From positions 1 to 32,000 of the forward strand of contig JAUNDF010000012.1 of NCBI GenBank assembly GCA_030526225.1: a stretch of DNA of 32,000 nucleotides, given 5' to 3'. The DNA is from Clostridia bacterium (lineage in GTDB: Bacteria; Bacillota; Clostridia; Christensenellales; Aristaeellaceae). Both the position numbers and the translations under genes were made by a program. Shown piece after piece: positions 11,035-20,253 of the stretch; position 1 is the first letter of the stretch, and the number at the start of each line of letters is the position of its first letter. The notes under the pieces are model-generated. The model saw only the letters and a program-made list of their open reading frames with translations, did no database searches and was not told the origin of the DNA.

Positions 11035-11063
11035 TTGACAAGGCATCTCCCGGCTGTTAAAAT
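11035..11063 (+). promoter_or_regulatory. promoter for the small peptide gene (TTGACA-N17-TAAAAT)
   Basis: The sequence TTGACAaggcatctcccggctgtTAAAAT lies about 100 nt upstream of the ATG at 11167. Confidence 0.5.
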
Positions 11064-11166
11064 AAATCAAAAAAATTTTTTAATTTATGCGGCCCTGACA
11101 CCGTTTCGGCTGTATAAAAGGGCGAAACACAAAAACAACCTCCACCTGAAGAAAGGATGATATACG

Positions 11167-11379
11167 ATGGATAAGAAATTGAGAGGCATTTTCAACTACC
11201 AGTCATTCTCCCCCGACAGCAGACTGAGCAGCCTGATTAACGACACCATGAGCCGCTATTCCGCCGGCACAGAGCTTAGTGACGATGACCTGATGTTCGT
11301 CAATGCCGCCGGCAGCCCCGAGCAGGCCCGTCAGAGCGCCGATGCCCTGCGCTCCATCCTCGATAAAGCCGATAAATAA
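11167..11379 (+). CDS. 70-aa putative exported precursor peptide with a double-glycine-type (NHLP-like) leader end
   Basis: An AAGGA RBS is present. The sequence ..GTELSDDDLMFVNAAG|SPEQ.. resembles the ..ELSDEELEAVAGG end of C39-processed leaders. The gene has its own promoter and a strong terminator. It sits directly upstream of a C39-peptidase ABC exporter operon. The stop is TAA. Confidence 0.55.
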   Translation: MDKKLRGIFNYQSFSPDSRLSSLINDTMSRYSAGTELSDDDLMFVNAAGSPEQARQSADALRSILDKADK

Positions 11380-11395
11380 TCACCGCTGTCCCTGT

Positions 11396-11431
11396 CCCCT
11401 CCGGCATCAAACGCCGGAGGGGCATTTTTTG
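11396..11431 (+). terminator. intrinsic terminator after the peptide gene
   Basis: There is a perfect 10-bp stem, CCCCTCCGGCatcaaacGCCGGAGGGG, followed by caTTTTTT. Confidence 0.8.
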
Positions 11432-11453
11432 TGTTATGCAGCCTGCGACCGTG

Positions 11454-11482
11454 TTGTCAATTTCATCCGGATTTGATATAAT
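11454..11482 (+). promoter_or_regulatory. promoter for the sigma/ABC operon (TTGTCA-N17-TATAAT)
   Basis: The sequence is TTGTCAatttcatccggatttgaTATAAT, about 40 nt upstream of the sigma factor ATG. Confidence 0.5.
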
Positions 11483-11520
11483 TGTGACGAATTATTTCCT
11501 CTTAAATAGCAGGAGGCAGC

Positions 11521-12003
11521 ATGGATCAGGAAAAGATTTATTCGGAATATTATCCCAAGGTATTGCGTTATGTGCGCTCCAAAATCAGCCGGTATGATGA
11601 AGCGGAGGATCTGGCGCAGAACGTGTTTGTGAAGGTCTTTCAAAAGTGGGATACCTTTGACGAAACAAAGGCATCCATTTCCACCTGGATTTATACCATC
11701 ACCCATAACACCGTGTGCAATTATTACAAATCCATGAGCTACCGGCAGACCGAAGAGCTGCCCGAGCAGGTGGCGGACGAAATCACCCCGGATTTTACCG
11801 AGGAGATTGTCCAGAAGGACATGCAGGGCCGTTTGGCTGATGCCCTGTCCACCATGCCCCAGGAAAAGCGGGATTTGATTATCCTGTATTACTACGGCGG
11901 CGTTACCCTGAAGGACATCGCCGTCAAGATGAACCGCCCCTACGGCCAGATTAAGCGGCTGCACGAAAAAGTGCTCAAGGAGCTGTCCCTGGCTCTTGGC
12001 TGA
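11521..12003 (+). CDS. ECF-type sigma-70 family RNA polymerase sigma factor
   Basis: The 160 aa ORF has region 2 (..DEAEDLAQNVFVKVFQKWDTFDE..STWIYTITHN) and region 4 (..KRDLIILYYYGGVTLKDIAVKMNRPYGQIKRLHEKVL). The RBS is AGGAGG. The stop is TGA. Confidence 0.85.
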   Translation: MDQEKIYSEYYPKVLRYVRSKISRYDEAEDLAQNVFVKVFQKWDTFDETKASISTWIYTITHNTVCNYYKSMSYRQTEELPEQVADEITPDFTEEIVQKDMQGRLADALSTMPQEKRDLIILYYYGGVTLKDIAVKMNRPYGQIKRLHEKVLKELSLALG

Positions 12004-12024
12004 TGACAAACGGAGGTGTTTCCC

Positions 12025-12234
12025 ATGAACGAATCTCTGTTTCGCAAGGCCAGCCTGGACCGCATCGCATCCCCGGAGGATTCGGATGAGTACCTGCGCC
12101 GCACCCCGGTTCCCCGATGGCTGATTGCCGCGGCAGCCGCGGTGCTGCTTTTCGGCGCGGCCTGCTGGGGATATACCGCATACACCGCGCTGCATCCGGC
12201 CCCATCCATCACGGAAGGGAGCACAGCAGAATGA
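12025..12234 (+). CDS. 69-aa membrane protein resembling only the N-terminus plus TM anchor of HlyD-type (NHLM bacteriocin system) secretion proteins
   Basis: The sequence MNESLFRKASLDRIASPEDSDEYLRRTPVPRWLIAAAAAVLLFGAACW matches the conserved start of HlyD-like accessory proteins (..ALxRLSSPEQLD..PRxWL..TM). It stops about 20 aa after the TM helix. The RBS is GGAGGTG. An ATGA overlap links it to the next gene. Confidence 0.6.
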   Translation: MNESLFRKASLDRIASPEDSDEYLRRTPVPRWLIAAAAAVLLFGAACWGYTAYTALHPAPSITEGSTAE

Positions 12235-14402
12235 GCTTTATCAAAAAATCCGCATCCGGCAGCGTTGTCCGCGTGCCGGTGATTTTGCAGCTGGAGGCGC
12301 TGGAGTGCGGTGCCGCCTGTCTGGCCATGATTTTGGCCTGCTACGGCAAATGGGTTCCGCTGGACAAGGTCCGCACAGACTGCGGCGTATCCCGGGACGG
12401 CTCCAATGCCAAAAACCTGCTCCTTGCCGCCCGCAGCTATGGCATGACGGCCAAGGGCATCCGCATCGAGCCGGAGGCACTGAAGAAAAACGGCGCCTTC
12501 CCTTGCATTATCCACTGGCAGTTCAACCACTTTGTGGTGCTGTGCGGCTTCCGCAAAAATGCGGCTGTCATCAATGACCCGGCCCGTGGCACCGTTGAAA
12601 TCCCCATGGAGGAATTCAGTCAGGCCTTCACCGGCATCTGCCTGATGATGACACCGGGCGAGCACTTTACCATTGGCGGCAGAAAAAAGAAGACAGCAGC
12701 GTACATCCGCGAGCATCTGAGGGGCGCCGGAAAGCACATCGCCGTTACGGCATCGCTGGCGGTGCTGGTAGGGCTGGTGGGCATTGCGCATACGTTTTTT
12801 GCCCAATATTTTATGGATAACCTTCTGGGGAAGCAGCAGCAAAAGGCCGCTCCCCTGTTTCTGCTTTTGTTCCTGCTGCTGGCAGTGGTGACCGTGGTGG
12901 CCAGAGGCTATCAGGCTCGGTATTCCCTGCGGCTGATGGGCCGCTATGCCGTGAAAGCCAACGCAGGCTTTATGCAGCACATTCTGCAGATGCCGGTGTA
13001 CTTTTTCTCCCAGCGCATGTCCGGTGATATCCTCGGCCGCAAGCGCAGCAATGAAAGCATCGCCTTTACGCTGATTGACACCATGGCCCCCATCGTGATC
13101 GACGGAGCGCTGGCTGTGGTGTATCTGGCGATTATGCTCCGCACCAGCTGGGTGCTGGCGCTCATCGGCATCGGCGGCATGGCCGTGCATCTGCTGATGA
13201 ACCGGCATCTGTCCGGCAAGCGGGAAAACATCTCCCGGCTAAACCTGCGCAACGAGGCCAAGCTGGATTCCGCCACCGTATCCGGCATGGAGATGATTGA
13301 AACCATCAAGTCCAGCGGCGCAGAAAGCGGCTTTTTCGCCAAATGGGCGGGCTGTCAGGCGGCAGTCCACAATCAGAACCTGAAAAGCCGCAATCTGGAG
13401 AATCTGTACACCCTCAGCATGAACGCCGTGTCCATTGCGGTGGATATGGGCATTCTGTTCCTTGGTTTGCGTCTGATTATCCGCGGCGATATGACCGTGG
13501 GCATGCTGTTTGCGTTTCAGGGCTTTCTGATGTCCTTCATGAACCCCGTCACCCGCATTGCCTTCTCCGGCAGCGCCCTGCGGGAGATGCGCAGCAGCAT
13601 GGAGCGCATTGAGGATGTGATGGAGTACCCTGCCGACAAGATGTGTGCACAGCAGAGCGCATCCTGCGAAGCACCGGAAAAGCTCCGGGGCGAAATCGAG
13701 CTGCGCCATGTGACCTTCGGCTACTCTCCCCTTGCAAAGCCCTTGATTGAGGACCTGAGCCTGACGGTCAAGCCCGGTGAAAAGATTGCGCTGGTGGGTG
13801 CCTCCGGCTGCGGCAAGTCCACGGTATCGAAGCTGATTTCCGGCCTGTATCAGCCCTGGAGCGGCGAAATCCTGCTGGACGGCAAGCCGCTGACGGAGAT
13901 TGACCGCAGTGTGCTCACCGGCTCGCTGGCGGTGGTGGATCAGGACATCACCCTGTTTGAGGATACCATCGCCAACAACATCAAGATGTGGGACACCACC
14001 ATCGAGGATTTTGAGATGATTCTCGCCGCCCGGGATGCCAGCATGCATGATGTGATTATGCAGCGGAATGAGGGCTACCGTTATAAAATGTCAGAGGGCG
14101 GCCGTGACTTCTCCGGCGGTCAGCGCCAGCGGCTGGAAATTGCCCGGGTGCTGGCCCAGGACCCCACCATGATCATCATGGATGAGGCCACCTCTGCGCT
14201 GGATGCCAAAACAGAGTTCGATGTGGTCAACGCCATCCGCGACCGGGGCATCACCTGTCTGGTGATTGCCCACCGCCTGTCCACCATCCGGGACTGTGAC
14301 CAGATTCTGGTGATGGACCACGGCAGGATTATCGAGCGGGGCACCCATGGCGAGCTGATGGCCGGCGGCGGCATCTATCAGCAGCTGATTATGAACGATT
14401 GA
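12231..14402 (+). CDS. bacteriocin/peptide-exporting ABC transporter with N-terminal C39 peptidase domain (peptidase/permease/ATP-binding)
   Basis: The C39 catalytic context is present (LQLEALECGAACLAMIL and ..HWQFNHFVVL..). The ORF also has a six-TM ABC exporter domain, Walker A (GASGCGKST), the signature (LSGGQRQR) and Walker B (IIIMDEATSALD). I placed the start at ATG 12231. The stop is TGA. Confidence 0.9.
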   Translation: MSFIKKSASGSVVRVPVILQLEALECGAACLAMILACYGKWVPLDKVRTDCGVSRDGSNAKNLLLAARSYGMTAKGIRIEPEALKKNGAFPCIIHWQFNHFVVLCGFRKNAAVINDPARGTVEIPMEEFSQAFTGICLMMTPGEHFTIGGRKKKTAAYIREHLRGAGKHIAVTASLAVLVGLVGIAHTFFAQYFMDNLLGKQQQKAAPLFLLLFLLLAVVTVVARGYQARYSLRLMGRYAVKANAGFMQHILQMPVYFFSQRMSGDILGRKRSNESIAFTLIDTMAPIVIDGALAVVYLAIMLRTSWVLALIGIGGMAVHLLMNRHLSGKRENISRLNLRNEAKLDSATVSGMEMIETIKSSGAESGFFAKWAGCQAAVHNQNLKSRNLENLYTLSMNAVSIAVDMGILFLGLRLIIRGDMTVGMLFAFQGFLMSFMNPVTRIAFSGSALREMRSSMERIEDVMEYPADKMCAQQSASCEAPEKLRGEIELRHVTFGYSPLAKPLIEDLSLTVKPGEKIALVGASGCGKSTVSKLISGLYQPWSGEILLDGKPLTEIDRSVLTGSLAVVDQDITLFEDTIANNIKMWDTTIEDFEMILAARDASMHDVIMQRNEGYRYKMSEGGRDFSGGQRQRLEIARVLAQDPTMIIMDEATSALDAKTEFDVVNAIRDRGITCLVIAHRLSTIRDCDQILVMDHGRIIERGTHGELMAGGGIYQQLIMND

Positions 14403-14412
14403 GGAGGCGCAC

Positions 14413-16602
14413 ATGAGTTGGGTTGAAGAACAAATCAAGCAGCGCATCCACAGAGATAATCAGCTGTACGATGATGCCATGGCCCGGATGGATGCCATGG
14501 CCGAGGGAAAGCCCTATACCGGCTCCGCCCCCGGCAGCCGCGAGCTGGTGGGGCAGGCCATGGATGAAATCCTGCGCTATTACCATGTCAAGCCCCCTGA
14601 AATCCCCGATTCCATCACGGATACGGAGGAAATGCTGGAATACCTGCTGCGCCCCTCCGGCATCATGCACCGCACCGTTTCCCTCACCGGTGACTGGTAC
14701 ACCCATGCCACCGGTGCCATGCTGGCCGCTACGCAGGACGGTACCGTCATCGCCCTGATTCCCGGCAGAGCCCGCGGATATTATTATCGGGAAAGTGCCA
14801 CCGGCAAACGAATCAGAATCACCAAAGCAAACGCGGATACCATCGCCGCCCCGGCCATCTGCTTTTATCAGCCCATGCCGCAGGAGAAGATGACCGCCGC
14901 GGATTATGTGCTGTATCTGTTCCGCCAGCTGCAGCTGAAGGACTTTCTCCGCATGGCGGCGGCCACCCTGCTGATGACCCTGCTGGGGCTGCTGATTCCC
15001 GTGGTGACCGCGTTCCTTTACAGCAAGGTGCTGGCAGACAAGAGCATCGCGCTGCTCGCAGGCGCGGTCCTGTCCATGCTGTGTGTGCGGCTGGCCATGG
15101 CGCTGATTGATTTGGTCAAGCGCATCATGCTGACGGACATCACCGCCGGCATATCATCCGCCGCAGAAAGTGCGCTGATGATGCGGCTGCTGTCCCTGCC
15201 GGCATCATTTTTCAAGCAATACGGTGCGGGCGAGCTGTCCGGGCGAATCACCTGCGCAAGGGTGCTGGCAGAGCGGCTGTTCAGCGCCCTGTTCACCCTG
15301 GCACTGTCCTCCGTATTCGCGCTGATGTACGTCATCCAGCTGGCGAAATTCGCCCCTGCGCTGATGTTCCCGGCGGTGCTGGTCATCCTTGTTACCTTCA
15401 TGATTCAGCTTACTGCCGGATTCATCCGCGCCCGCTATTTTGAACAGTATGTGACAGAAAGCACCAAGGAGAGCGGTCTGGTGCTGGCGCTGATGAACGG
15501 CCTGACGAAGATTCGCGTTTCCGGCAGTGAAAAGCGCGCCTTTTCCAAGTGGAGCGAGCAATACATCAAGGCCGCCAAAAACCTGTACAATGTTCCCGCT
15601 TTCCTCACCCTGCGGGATGCAATCACCGCCGCCGTGACCCTTGCCGGTACGCTGGTGATGTATTGTCTGGCCCTTGCCTCCGGCATCACACAGGCGGAAT
15701 ACTTGGCGTTCTTCGCCGCCTATGGCATGCTCTCCGGTGCATTTGCCGCGCTGGCAGACATTGCCTATACCAATGCGGAAGTCAAGCCCCTGCTGAACAT
15801 GATTGCCCCCATGCTGGCAGTCGTGCCGGAGGTGGGTAAAAGCCGCCGGATGGTCACCTCCCTTCGCGGCGGCATTGAGCTGAGCCATGTGTCCTTCCGT
15901 TATCAGGACAACATGCCCGATGTGCTGGACGATTTGTCCCTGACCATCCGTCCGGGGCAGTATGTGGGCATTGTGGGCAAAACAGGCTGCGGCAAATCCA
16001 CCCTGATGCGCATCCTGCTGGGCTTTGAAAAGCCACAGCGGGGCACCGTGTATTACGACAGGCAGGATATTGCCGCACTGGACCTGAAGTCCCTGCGCCG
16101 CCACATCGGCACCGTGATGCAGAATGACCGCCTGTTCATGGGTGATATTTTCTCCAACATCACCATTGCCGCCCCGAAGCTGACACTGGATGATGCATGG
16201 CAGGCCGCCGAAACCGCCGGCGTGGCGGATGACATCCGTGAAATGCCCATGGGCATGCATACCTTCATCTCCGAGGGACAGGGCGGCATCTCCGGCGGTC
16301 AGCGCCAGCGGCTGCTCATCGCCCGGGCCATTGCGCCCAAGCCCAAAATCCTCCTGTTTGACGAGGCCACATCGGCACTGGACAACATCACTCAAAAGAA
16401 GGTATCCGATGCGCTGGCTCAGCTGAAGTGCACGAGGATTGTCATCGCTCACCGGCTGTCTACCATCCGCAACTGTGACCGGATTCTGGTAATGGACAGG
16501 GGCAAAATCATCGAAGACGGCACCTATGACCAGCTGATGGCCGCCGACAGCTTCTTTGCGGAGCTTGTGCGGCGTCAGCAAGTGACACAGCAAGCGAATT
16601 GA
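14413..16602 (+). CDS. second ABC exporter subunit (permease/ATP-binding) with a degenerate, Cys-less C39-like N-terminal domain
   Basis: The 729 aa ORF has an N-terminal domain of about 160 aa with no catalytic Cys. It also has a TM exporter domain and the motifs GKTGCGKST, ISGGQRQR and ILLFDEATSALD. This pairing is typical of two-ABC 'NHLM bacteriocin system' exporters. The RBS is GAGGAGG. The stop is TGA. Confidence 0.9.
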   Translation: MSWVEEQIKQRIHRDNQLYDDAMARMDAMAEGKPYTGSAPGSRELVGQAMDEILRYYHVKPPEIPDSITDTEEMLEYLLRPSGIMHRTVSLTGDWYTHATGAMLAATQDGTVIALIPGRARGYYYRESATGKRIRITKANADTIAAPAICFYQPMPQEKMTAADYVLYLFRQLQLKDFLRMAAATLLMTLLGLLIPVVTAFLYSKVLADKSIALLAGAVLSMLCVRLAMALIDLVKRIMLTDITAGISSAAESALMMRLLSLPASFFKQYGAGELSGRITCARVLAERLFSALFTLALSSVFALMYVIQLAKFAPALMFPAVLVILVTFMIQLTAGFIRARYFEQYVTESTKESGLVLALMNGLTKIRVSGSEKRAFSKWSEQYIKAAKNLYNVPAFLTLRDAITAAVTLAGTLVMYCLALASGITQAEYLAFFAAYGMLSGAFAALADIAYTNAEVKPLLNMIAPMLAVVPEVGKSRRMVTSLRGGIELSHVSFRYQDNMPDVLDDLSLTIRPGQYVGIVGKTGCGKSTLMRILLGFEKPQRGTVYYDRQDIAALDLKSLRRHIGTVMQNDRLFMGDIFSNITIAAPKLTLDDAWQAAETAGVADDIREMPMGMHTFISEGQGGISGGQRQRLLIARAIAPKPKILLFDEATSALDNITQKKVSDALAQLKCTRIVIAHRLSTIRNCDRILVMDRGKIIEDGTYDQLMAADSFFAELVRRQQVTQQAN

Positions 16603-16620
16603 AAGGAGTGTGCATCGATT

Positions 16621-17055
16621 ATGGAAAAGAAACGCTGTAAGGGCAAGCTTGTCATCATCCTGCTGCTGATTGTCAATCTCTGCGCCACGGCAGTATTTGG
16701 CACCATGCTGCTGACCCGCAAGCAGACAGCCTATGAGTCTGACGGCTTCCTTGTCTATGTGGGCCTGACCGACAAGGATGCCTACACGCAGGTGCTTTCC
16801 ACCGAAGAAGCCAAGGACAAGCTGGAGAACATCCTCAGCCGTCACCTGGGCGGCTATACCATCATCGATGCCACCGGCGGCTGGCTGGATGAAACCAACA
16901 CCATGAAGCGGGAACTCACCCTGATGTGCGTGATGAACGGCACGGACATCGACACCGTTCACAAGGTCTGCGACGATATTTTCGTGGAGCTGAATGTCAA
17001 CACGGTGCTCATCGAGCAAAAGCCCATCCATATGGAATATTATTCACGTAAATAA
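16621..17055 (+). CDS. membrane-anchored hypothetical protein (144 aa), last gene of the exporter operon
   Basis: The RBS is AAAGGAG. There is a single N-terminal TM helix (KLVIILLLIVNLCATAVFGTMLL) followed by a soluble domain of about 110 aa. I recognised no family. The stop is TAA. Confidence 0.6.
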   Translation: MEKKRCKGKLVIILLLIVNLCATAVFGTMLLTRKQTAYESDGFLVYVGLTDKDAYTQVLSTEEAKDKLENILSRHLGGYTIIDATGGWLDETNTMKRELTLMCVMNGTDIDTVHKVCDDIFVELNVNTVLIEQKPIHMEYYSRK

Positions 17056-17061
17056 CAGCAA

Positions 17062-17094
17062 AAGAGGCATCGACAAAACCGATGCCTCTTTTCA
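17062..17094. terminator. bidirectional intrinsic terminator between convergent operons
   Basis: There is a perfect stem, AAGAGGCATCGacaaaaCCGATGCCTCTT, flanked by A-runs and T-runs. Confidence 0.7.
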
Positions 17095-17143: not shown

Positions 17144-17440
17144 TTATTCCACCACCAGGAAGTCGGCAAAGCCGGTGATTTCAAACACGTCCATCACGCC
17201 TTCGCACACATTGGTCAGCTTGAGGCCGCCGGCGTTGAGGTACTTCTTGTGGGCGCTGAGCAGCACGCGCAGTCCGGCAGAGGATACATACTGTACGCCG
17301 GACATGTCGAGGGTCAGCTGATTGATTTCATCCCCCAGCTGGAACAGTGCTGTTTCCAGGGTGGAAGCAGTGGCCGTATCAAGGCGGCCATCCAGCTTCA
17401 GGGTTGCGGCGTTGTTGTTCTTTTCAGTGGTAATGGTCAT
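17144..17440 (-). CDS. STAS-domain anti-sigma-factor antagonist (SpoIIAA/RsbV-like)
   Basis: The 98 aa ORF reads ..LKLDGRLDTATASTLE...LDMSGVQYVSSAGLRVLL.., containing the conserved phosphorylatable Ser context. The stop is TAA. Confidence 0.85.
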   Translation of the reverse strand: MTITTEKNNNAATLKLDGRLDTATASTLETALFQLGDEINQLTLDMSGVQYVSSAGLRVLLSAHKKYLNAGGLKLTNVCEGVMDVFEITGFADFLVVE

Positions 17441-17454
17441 GGGAATCGTCCTCC

Positions 17455-20253
17455 TTACAAAATCTTTTTCTGCATGGTCAGTACATTTTCGCCATGCTCG
17501 TAGCTGTATTCCAGATTGTCCATGGTCTTTCTTGTAATCAGGATGCCAAGGCCGCCGATGTCACGCTCCTCCACGCTTGCGGTGATGTCCGGGTCCTGAT
17601 GCTCCAGCGGATTGAAGGGCTTGCCGTGGTCGCGGAAGCGGAAGGTCACGGTGCCGGTGGGTTCATCATAGGCGATGCCCACATTGGCGGTGCCGTCCTC
17701 GCCGTTGTAGGCGTAGTGGGCAATGTTGACGAATATCTCCTCAATGGCGATGCTGATGGCCATCTGCAGCTTCATGGGGCAGCCCAGCTGCTCCAGCTCG
17801 CCCTCCAGGAACGCCTGCACATCCCCCAGCGCCCTTGCATCTGCGGGGAAGGTCTTTTCCTTCATGGCCTGTCCTCCCTTCATGTAGTCCAGCATCAGCA
17901 TGGTCATGTCATCGAACTGAGGCGCATCGCCCACAAAGCGGTCGATATCCTCCTTCAGCTGATGAAGCAGGTCATGCGCATTCAGCCCTGCATGGCCGTT
18001 GAGGTAGGTCAGCAGCCGCTCTTCGCCATACAGCTGCTCCTTTGCATCGGTGGCTTCCGTTACGCCGTCAGTGTACAGGAAGATGCGATCGCCGGGGGCA
18101 AGGTTCATTTCGTTCAGGCGGTAGCGGATGCCCTCCATGCCCGCCAGCACAAAGCCGGGGCGGGACTTGAGATAGGTGAAGGTGCCGTTTTGCAGCAGCA
18201 CCGGCGGATTGTGTCCGGCATTGGCGTACTGCAGCTTGCCCGTTGTCAGGTCAAGGATGCCCATCCATGCGGTCACGAACATGGCCGATTCGTTGCTCTC
18301 GCACAGCTTTTCGTTGGCCAGGGTCAGGATTTCGTTCACCGCCAGCCTGCGCTCGGCCAGCTCCTTGATGATGGTCTTGGCGCGCATCATAAACAGCGCT
18401 GCCGGGATGCCCTTGCCGGAAACATCCGCGCAAAGGATGGCCACCCGATCCTCATCCAGCAGATAGAAGTCGTAGAAGTCGCCGCCCACTTCCTTCGCCG
18501 CAATCATTTGCGCATAGATGTCGAAGCGGTCCTGCTGGGGATAGGGCGGGAACTTGGAGGGCAAGGCAGACAGCTGAATCTGCTTGGCGTACTCCAATTC
18601 CTTGTCGATGCGGGCCGCCGTTTCGGCGATGTAGCGCTTCAGGGTGCTGACGGTGGAGTTGATATCATCCGACAGGGAGGAGAATTCCTCGTTGGTGCGG
18701 ACATTGACCTGCACGTTCAGGTTGCCGTCTGTAATTTCGGAAAGGGATGCGTTGATTTTGTGAAGGTTATTGATGATGACCTTCTTGATGAGGAAGTACA
18801 CCAGCAGGAACAGCATGGCAAAAATCAGAATCTCCATCAGGATGGATACATAGATGGATGCATCCCGCATGAAGTCTGCTTCCGCTTCCGGGAGGGTGCC
18901 CACGATGTAGTAGCCCTCGCTGCGCAGATAGGAGAACATGCAGGGTTCCCCGTCCAGCAGGGTGCGGTAAACCTGACCCTCGCGCATGTTGTCGGGCTCG
19001 TCCATCATGTCCATCAGGTTACGGCCCTTGCTGTCCTCAATCAGATTCCAGTCGCTGTCGCAGATGATGATTTTGCCGCTGTTGCCGATGTGGCGGTTCT
19101 TGGCCGCCTGGAACACGTATTCATCCACATCATGCTTGAACTGTGCATAGGAGTAGCCCGCCTGCAGGAAGCCGCCGCCGGGCAGACTGACCGCACCGTA
19201 CTTGCGGGAGGTGGCTCCGTTGTAGGCAATGGGCTGATAGCTTTGGGCGTACTCCTCCGTGCCCTCCAGCATGCACATAAACTCCCGGGACTGCTCGCCG
19301 CTGTCCATGTGATAGCCAACGAAGGTCGGCAGAGTGGACTATACGATGACACCGTTTTTGTCGACGATGTTGATTTCAATCACATCGTTTTTCAGCGCCA
19401 GCCGGGTCAGCTTTTTGCTGTCCCACTGATCGTCCTTCAGGTATTCCGAGCGGATTTTCCGCGCCACCTGCAGCAGATGGCGGTCGGAAGCATCGTTGAC
19501 ATCCTGCCGGACATCGTTCAGGGCAAGGTTGATGACCTTTTGGGTTTCCGTCCAGGCCATGTTGCTCTGCAGGTTGAAGGTAAAGATACTGGTCACCAGA
19601 TAGGCCACCAGAATGCAGACCATCAGCCATGTCTGGAAGGTCTGGGCGATGCCCTTCTGCCGGTCATCGGTCTTTTTCTTTTCCTTGCTGATGAGCGATA
19701 CCAGCAGCAGCGCCAGACCCACGGAAATGGCGTTGCCCGCCATCATGGGCACGCATCCGCCGCGGACATAGGCAAAGGCATTGGCGGCATCGTGGCGGTT
19801 GAGCAGGAAAATCATCAGCATGTGGGCCGCTTCGCTGACCACGGCAATGCCCGCACCATAGCCCCAGCTGGGCTTGCGGTCATCGAACATCAGCTTGCGC
19901 AGCAGCGCGGCCAGACAGCCCACCAGCATGGTGGATACACCGGCGGCAATGCGGGTGTAATCACCCACGCCCCAAATCAGCCGGTACAGGCCGCCCATAA
20001 AGCCGGCGATCAAACCGGCAGGGGCGCCGAAAATCAAACCGGCACACAGCGGCGCGGCATTGCGCAGTGTTACCACCGTTTCCTTGAGGGGTATGCCGTG
20101 GTTGGTGGCAAAAATCGCCACCGCGCCAAACAGCACACCGATGATAACCTGCTTTGCCTTTCCCGGCAATTTTTTGCAGACGGTGTACTTCTCCAGTACA
20201 TAAATCAGAAGAACAAGCAGCGTATTCATCATTGCGGGTAAAATCAGCTCCAT
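17455..20253 (-). CDS. membrane sensor protein: 5TM LytS/YhcK-type receptor domain, extracytoplasmic sensor, HAMP, PP2C (SpoIIE-type) phosphatase and RsbW-like HATPase; interrupted by one in-frame TAG at 19339-19341
   Basis: Track ORFs 19339..20253 and 17455..19308 are in the same frame. The N-terminal part has multi-TM 5TMR-LYT-like helices. The C-terminal part has HAMP, PP2C motifs (..GGDFYDF.., ..DVSGKGIPAALFM.., ..LYTDGVTEA..) and an anti-sigma-kinase-like ATPase tail. There is no RBS or start context after the TAG. The start ATG at 20253 has a GAGGGA RBS. The stop is TAA. Confidence 0.75.

What the first reader, a model, noticed from the sequence alone, without database searches (positions are those of the whole stretch)
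11035..17094. Small leader-bearing peptide, ECF sigma factor, HlyD stub, C39-peptidase double ABC exporter and anchored protein: possible peptide signalling or bacteriocin module with no modification enzymes
The gene order is a peptide gene with its own promoter and strong terminator, then one operon. The operon runs sigma factor, 69-aa HlyD-like stub, C39 ABC exporter, Cys-less C39-like ABC exporter and a 144-aa anchored protein, with overlapping or closely spaced starts and a terminal terminator. The two-ABC architecture is that of 'NHLM bacteriocin system' exporters. Several features are unusual here. No RiPP-modifying enzyme, immunity ABC or two-component sensor is adjacent. An ECF sigma factor is the first gene of the exporter operon. 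There is no recognisable anti-sigma factor, unless the stub or the 144-aa protein plays that role. The arrangement is reminiscent of ComC/ComAB feeding an alternative sigma factor, but the parts are different. I do not know of a described system with this composition.
Basis: partly seen in the sequence, partly recalled or inferred. Interest (0 to 1): 0.75.

Follow-up and report, generated by a model that had tools for sequence, protein, structure and literature searches.

The report
Leader-bearing peptide paired with sigma factor
A small protein that carries a peptide-export signal almost always sits beside one particular sigma factor, usually next to a two-pump peptide exporter, in uncultured gut and rumen Clostridia; this looks like an undescribed switch linking gene expression to peptide export.

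Summary
The genes are present as described. They are the 70-aa peptide (11167-11379, own promoter and terminator), an ECF-type sigma, a 69-aa HlyD N-terminal stub, a C39 ABC exporter (TIGR03796 above cut-off), a second ABC exporter (TIGR03797, just below cut-off), a 144-aa anchored protein and a terminal terminator.

Two points in the finding do not hold. "C39-like" for the second pump is unproven. "No anti-sigma candidate" is wrong: a convergent operon (17144-20253) encodes STAS plus a sensor PP2C phosphatase fused to an RsbW-type domain, and the same module recurs in relatives.

The peptide belongs to a large unmodelled family, which I call SAP (about 1270 clusters at 50% identity). Members share a conserved 49-aa leader ending in an invariant AAG, followed by a short charged tail. 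SAP lies next to this sigma clade in 59 of 63 non-redundant loci, often with overlapping stop and start codons. The exporter lies within 5 kb or more in 15 of 19 well-flanked loci.

In relatives the exporter also serves Nif11-leader cargo peptides. A shared promoter-like motif precedes both SAP and the cargo genes. The window holds a stripped version with no cargo.

Best guess (about 0.4): SAP is the sigma's partner regulator and the exporter controls it. The main rival (about 0.3) is a secreted autoinducer. The 144-aa protein is a passenger.

The parts
11035..11063 (+). Sigma-70-type promoter-like site upstream of the peptide gene (TTGACA-17-TAAAAT)
   Evidence: 11 of 12 matches, with TG before the -10 element.
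11085..11120 (+). Weak match to the family promoter-like motif (CGGCCC-N15-TGTATAAA), 50 nt before the ATG
   Evidence: The register matches that of relatives, but the PWM score is only 3.0 bits. About 4% of random 140-nt stretches of the window score as well.
11167..11379 (+). SAP gene (70 aa). Conserved leader = aa 1-49 (11167-11313), ending in NAAG. Tail = aa 50-70, SPEQARQSADALRSILDKADK.
   Evidence: No Pfam or NCBIfam model matches.
11396..11432 (+). Intrinsic terminator after the peptide gene
   Evidence: 10-bp stem with 9 G-C pairs, then a T-run.
11454..11482 (+). Sigma-70-type promoter-like site of the sigma-exporter operon (TTGTCA-17-TATAAT)
   Evidence: 11 of 12 matches.
11521..12003 (+). 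ECF-type sigma factor (160 aa, regions 2 and 4 only)
   Evidence: Clade defined.
12025..12234 (+). 69-aa stub homologous to the cytoplasmic N-terminus plus membrane helix of the NHLM HlyD-type secretion protein
   Evidence: A 167-aa relative matches TIGR03794 positions 1-56 at E=2.6e-9. Relatives fall into 74-aa and roughly 150-aa size classes.
12231..14402 (+). ABC1: C39 peptidase, permease and ATPase (TIGR03796)
14413..16602 (+). ABC2: permease and ATPase with a conserved N-terminal extension of about 170 aa and unknown fold (TIGR03797-like)
16621..17055 (+). 144-aa membrane-anchored DUF3574-like protein. It is co-transcribed here but is not a conserved member of the system.
17060..17092 (.). 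Terminator hairpin shared by the convergent operons
   Evidence: 15-bp stem.
17144..17440 (-). STAS-domain protein (anti-sigma antagonist type), with the Ser-Ser-Ala-Gly phosphorylation-site context
   Evidence: Recurs beside the module in relatives. Its start overlaps the sigma stop by 4 nt in L072.
17455..20253 (-). Sensor phosphatase gene: 5TM-5TMR_LYT, an extracytoplasmic region, HAMP, SpoIIE/PP2C and an RsbW-type HATPase_c_2 domain. It is interrupted by one in-frame TAG at 19339-19341.
   Evidence: The read-through translation aligns over residues 1-930 with an intact 937-aa orthologue.

Best explanation
Core claim (about 0.85). The window holds a cargo-less copy of a conserved regulatory and export cassette of uncultured gut and rumen Clostridia. 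The cassette has three parts:
- a small protein (SAP) with a conserved 49-aa leader whose last 13 residues mimic the Nif11/NHLP export leader;
- a dedicated ECF-type sigma factor;
- an NHLM-type exporter made of a pruned HlyD, a C39-ABC pump and a second ABC pump.

In relatives the sigma most likely transcribes SAP, and the GG-leader cargo peptides that the exporter secretes, from a shared promoter of the form T[AG][GT]CC[CA]-N15-CGTATA[AT]A.

Committed mechanism (about 0.4, inferred). SAP is the sigma's cognate negative partner. It is made in step with the sigma, by translational coupling in most relatives. Its conserved N-terminal half holds the sigma. Its leader-like C-terminal half is recognised by the C39 pump. 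Cleavage and export of its tail then inactivates SAP and frees the sigma. Expression of the exported peptides would therefore follow the capacity of their exporter. The logic resembles FlgM/sigma-28, but works through a peptidase-ABC exporter.

The neighbouring STAS/PP2C/RsbW module would add a second, signal-dependent layer of control. In this genome its sensor gene carries a stop codon.
For: Shown:
- SAP is adjacent to this sigma clade in 59 of 63 non-redundant loci, and in 49 of 51 loci where both flanks are visible. This held whether the search started from the peptide or independently from the sigma.
- Stop and start codons overlap in 31 of 68 SAP-to-sigma junctions, and another 16 junctions have gaps of 30 nt or less.
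- ABC1 is present in 15 of 19 loci that have at least 5 kb on both sides.
- The family is large. A profile search finds 1271 representative clusters at E<=1e-3, almost all 56-120 aa.
- The leader is far more conserved than the tail. xAAG is present in 142 of 143 members.
- Only the last 15 leader residues align with Nif11 cargo leaders (hhalign E=6.6e-5). The N-terminal 35 residues are therefore a distinct conserved module that export recognition alone does not explain.
- Tails have a median of 14 aa, are 42% D/K/E/R, and contain Cys in 5 of 162 cases. This is unlike a bacteriocin or a RiPP core.
- Separate cargo genes and radical SAM maturases exist in relatives.
- The shared promoter-like motif gives 122 PWM hits against 22 in shuffled sequence. 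The hits lie in front of SAP, N11P and other GG-leader genes, and one radical SAM gene.
- BLAST with the window's own STAS and PP2C found neither gene within 5-10 kb in roughly two thirds of well-flanked loci, so no partner-switching regulator was detected near the sigma there; other regulator types were not screened.

From general knowledge: ECF sigma factors are normally encoded beside their cognate regulator.
Against: - No binding evidence exists.
- Peptidase-ABC exporters cleave the leader and export only the tail. The conserved part of SAP would therefore stay in the cell, and the model needs cleavage itself to inactivate it.
- Read in register with the published leader logo (PMC2887384), SAP has Ala-Ala where the Gly-Gly belongs. 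Typical sites are GG, GA or GS (PMC6363468). Cleavage is therefore uncertain.
- In one large clade the tail is conserved ([ST]xVxDPKxD[KR]EKR). Some loci carry two SAP paralogues with different tails. Both features fit a secreted signal.
- An RsbW-type anti-sigma candidate with STAS is present in about a third of loci and in the window.
- In the window SAP is a separate transcription unit, and its match to the family motif is weak at 3.0 bits.
Confidence: 0.4

Rival explanations
1. SAP is the precursor of a secreted autoinducer. The exporter cleaves it after AAG and releases the short tail. The tail is sensed outside the cell by the membrane PP2C phosphatase (5TM-LYT, extracytoplasmic domain, HAMP), or in some relatives by an AgrC-like kinase with a LytTR regulator. 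The phosphatase dephosphorylates STAS, STAS captures the RsbW-type domain, and the sigma is freed. The sigma then transcribes SAP (positive feedback) and the cargo peptides.
For: - Every conserved neighbour receives a role in this model.
- STAS and PP2C(+RsbW) follow ABC2 in L007, L010, L011, L015, L016 and L025, flank the module in L095 and L098, and are convergent in the window.
- STAS overlaps the sigma stop codon in L072 and lies 14 nt after it in L045.
- An AgrC-like kinase and a LytTR regulator lie directly upstream of SAP in L002, L025 and others.
- The tail is conserved within the clade that has these sensors.
- Multiple SAP paralogues have different tails.
- In the window the gene is monocistronic with its own promoter and terminator, like a pheromone structural gene.
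Against: - STAS was found in only 7 of 19, and PP2C in only 5 of 19, loci with 5 kb on both sides. The sensor types differ between loci.
- Tails are very hydrophilic and, outside one clade, poorly conserved.
- The strongly conserved N-terminal 35 residues and the tight coupling to the sigma are not needed for a signal precursor.
- Partner switching acting on an ECF-type sigma is rare.
- In this genome the sensor gene carries an in-frame stop.
Confidence: 0.3
2. SAP is simply one more cargo of the exporter, either a small unmodified bacteriocin or another secreted effector. The sigma is only its transcriptional activator.
For: - SAP has an export-type leader end and lies adjacent to the exporter.
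- The promoter motif is shared with cargo genes.
Against: - Tails are 9-20 aa, charged and Cys-free. They lack the hydrophobic or cationic character of the true cargo cores found in the same loci, such as KHWWEFWK, GIFKNFFIFLLGL and Cys-rich cores next to radical SAM genes.
- The leader, not the tail, is the conserved part across about 1270 clusters.
- AAG is invariant, whereas cargo carries GG.
- No immunity gene is evident.
Confidence: 0.08
3. SAP is an uncleavable leader mimic (Ala-Ala in the Gly-Gly register). It occupies the C39 domain and thereby tunes the exporter, or tethers the sigma to it. It would be a pseudo-substrate regulator, not a secreted product.
For: - Register analysis against the published leader logo places A47-A48 at the Gly-Gly positions, with hydrophobic residues correctly at -4, -7 and -12 (PMC2887384).
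- Gly at -2 is the norm for C39 substrates (PMC6363468).
- AAG is invariant.
Against: - This is an inference from sequence only.
- A one-residue shift gives an Ala-Gly site that may be cleavable.
- The conserved tail in one clade would have no role.
Confidence: 0.12
4. In this particular genome the locus is a decaying remnant. It has no cargo genes, the sensor phosphatase is interrupted, the gene order is atypical and the family promoter is weak.
For: - No GG-leader cargo gene was found in the 32 kb.
- There is an in-frame TAG in the sensor gene.
- The motif scores 3.0 bits.
- The arrangement differs from that of the closest relatives L029-L031.
Against: - All six genes of the module are intact, with good ribosome-binding sites, promoters and terminators.
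- The catalytic residues of ABC1 are intact.
- The TAG could be an assembly error in a metagenome-assembled genome.
- Cargo genes may lie elsewhere in the genome.
Confidence: 0.1

Closest known systems
NHLP/N11P export system of Haft et al. 2010 (TIGR03794, TIGR03796 and TIGR03797, with Nif11- or nitrile-hydratase-type leader peptides; PMC2887384)
   Same: - It has two ABC subunits, one of which carries a C39 peptidase domain.
- The accessory protein is HlyD-derived.
- Relatives carry Nif11-leader cargo arrays with hypervariable cores.
- The ELSDDxLxxV leader end is shared.
   Different: - The HlyD protein is pruned to 69 aa here (74 or about 150 aa in relatives), against 421 aa in the model.
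- The window has no N11P or NHLP precursor.
- The adjacent peptide has a different N-terminal domain and AAG in place of GG.
- A dedicated sigma factor is part of the unit. The 2010 paper does not mention sigma factors (0 occurrences).
ComC/ComAB/ComDE leading to ComX (sigma X) competence circuit of Streptococcus pneumoniae, and related Blp circuits (own knowledge; reviews PMC7595303 and PMC13234698 appeared in the searches)
   Same: - A leader-bearing peptide is exported and cleaved by a C39 ABC transporter that has an accessory protein.
- The output is an alternative sigma factor.
- Some relatives even have an AgrC/ComD-like kinase and a LytTR regulator upstream.
   Different: - Here the peptide gene is glued to the sigma gene rather than to the kinase.
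- The window has no kinase or regulator.
- The leader is 49 aa, with a conserved extra domain and AAG.
- The exporter has two pumps.
FlgM / sigma-28 secretion checkpoint (own knowledge)
   Same: In the proposed logic, a small sigma-bound inhibitor is removed through a dedicated export machine, so that late genes follow the readiness of that machine.
   Different: - FlgM is exported whole through the flagellar type III apparatus.
- Here the exporter would cleave the protein and export only the tail.
- Binding to the sigma has not been shown.
Partner-switching modules: RsbU/RsbV/RsbW with sigma B, and BtrU/V/W with the ECF sigma BtrS in Bordetella (own knowledge; reviews PMC8256260 and PMC4598750 appeared in the searches)
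   Same: A PP2C phosphatase, a STAS protein and an RsbW-type HATPase_c_2 domain are encoded beside a sigma factor.
   Different: - The target would be a minimal ECF-type sigma.
- The phosphatase and the kinase-like domain are fused in the window.
- The module is present near only about a third of the loci.
ECF sigma / anti-sigma control of lantibiotic clusters, such as MibX/MibW for microbisporicin (own knowledge)
   Same: An ECF sigma factor is dedicated to a ribosomal-peptide export and biosynthesis cluster and autoregulates it.
   Different: - The partner here is a 60-70-aa soluble leader-bearing protein, not a membrane anti-sigma factor.
- The hosts are Clostridia, not actinomycetes.

Membership tests
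NHLM/NHLP-type bacteriocin export system (TIGR03796/03797/03794) | Peptidase-ABC subunit matching TIGR03796 above its curated cut-off, with intact C39 catalytic residues | tested here: met
   855.2 bits against a cut-off of 853.3. Peptidase_C39 E=4.4e-35. The QxxxxECG, NHFVV and DP motifs are present in the window and in 26 relatives.
NHLM/NHLP-type bacteriocin export system (TIGR03796/03797/03794) | Second ABC subunit matching TIGR03797 above its cut-off | tested here: inconclusive
   E=1.8e-204 and by far the best family, but 681.1 bits is below the cut-off of 709.4.
NHLM/NHLP-type bacteriocin export system (TIGR03796/03797/03794) | Full-length HlyD-type secretion protein (TIGR03794, 421 positions) | tested here: not met
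   Only a 69-aa protein is present, and it hits no HMM itself. A 167-aa relative matches model positions 1-56 only.
NHLM/NHLP-type bacteriocin export system (TIGR03796/03797/03794) | Cognate NHLP or Nif11-type precursor (TIGR03793/03798, PF07862) nearby | tested here: not met
   None in the 32-kb window. Present in relatives, where TIGR03798 scores 27-32 bits against a cut-off of 32.3.
Double-glycine (GG-type) leader peptides | Leader consensus with Leu at -12, an acidic residue at -8, Leu at -7 and Val/Leu at -4 | tested here: met
   ELSDDDLMFVNAA fits when read with A48 as position -1 (logo described in PMC2887384, consensus in PMC6363468). hhalign to the end of the cargo leaders gives E=6.6e-5.
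Double-glycine (GG-type) leader peptides | Gly at position -2 (GG, GA or GS) | tested here: not met
   AAG is present in 142 of 143 family members. The site reads Ala-Ala in register, or Ala-Gly with a one-residue shift.
Double-glycine (GG-type) leader peptides | Cleavage by the C39 domain and export of the C-terminal part | not testable with these tools
   This needs an in vitro protease assay or mass spectrometry.
ECF (group 4) sigma factors | Regions 2 and 4 only, matching the ECF superfamily model | tested here: met
   TIGR02937 95.5 bits against 42.9; Sigma70_r2 and r4. No named subfamily reaches its cut-off. ECF group numbers could not be assigned.
ECF (group 4) sigma factors | Autoregulated promoter with an ECF-type -10 element (CGT) | tested here: inconclusive
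   A conserved ...CC[CA]-N15-CGTATA motif lies upstream of SAP or SAP-sigma in most relatives. The window site is weak. The motif also resembles a housekeeping promoter (TTGCCA-17-TATAAA).
RsbU/RsbV/RsbW-type partner switching | PP2C phosphatase, STAS protein with a phosphorylatable Ser, and an RsbW-type HATPase_c_2 domain encoded together | tested here: met
   SpoIIE E=1.5e-53, HATPase_c_2 E=4.2e-23, STAS E=5.7e-17. Weak RsbW model hits, E=1.8e-6. The STAS motif DMSGVQYVSSAGL was read.
RsbU/RsbV/RsbW-type partner switching | The RsbW-type domain binds and inhibits this sigma | not testable with these tools
   The only evidence is recurrent neighbourhood.
Secreted anti-sigma factor (FlgM-like logic) | Direct binding of the small protein to the sigma, with inhibition relieved by export | not testable with these tools
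Support is limited to adjacency and translational coupling.

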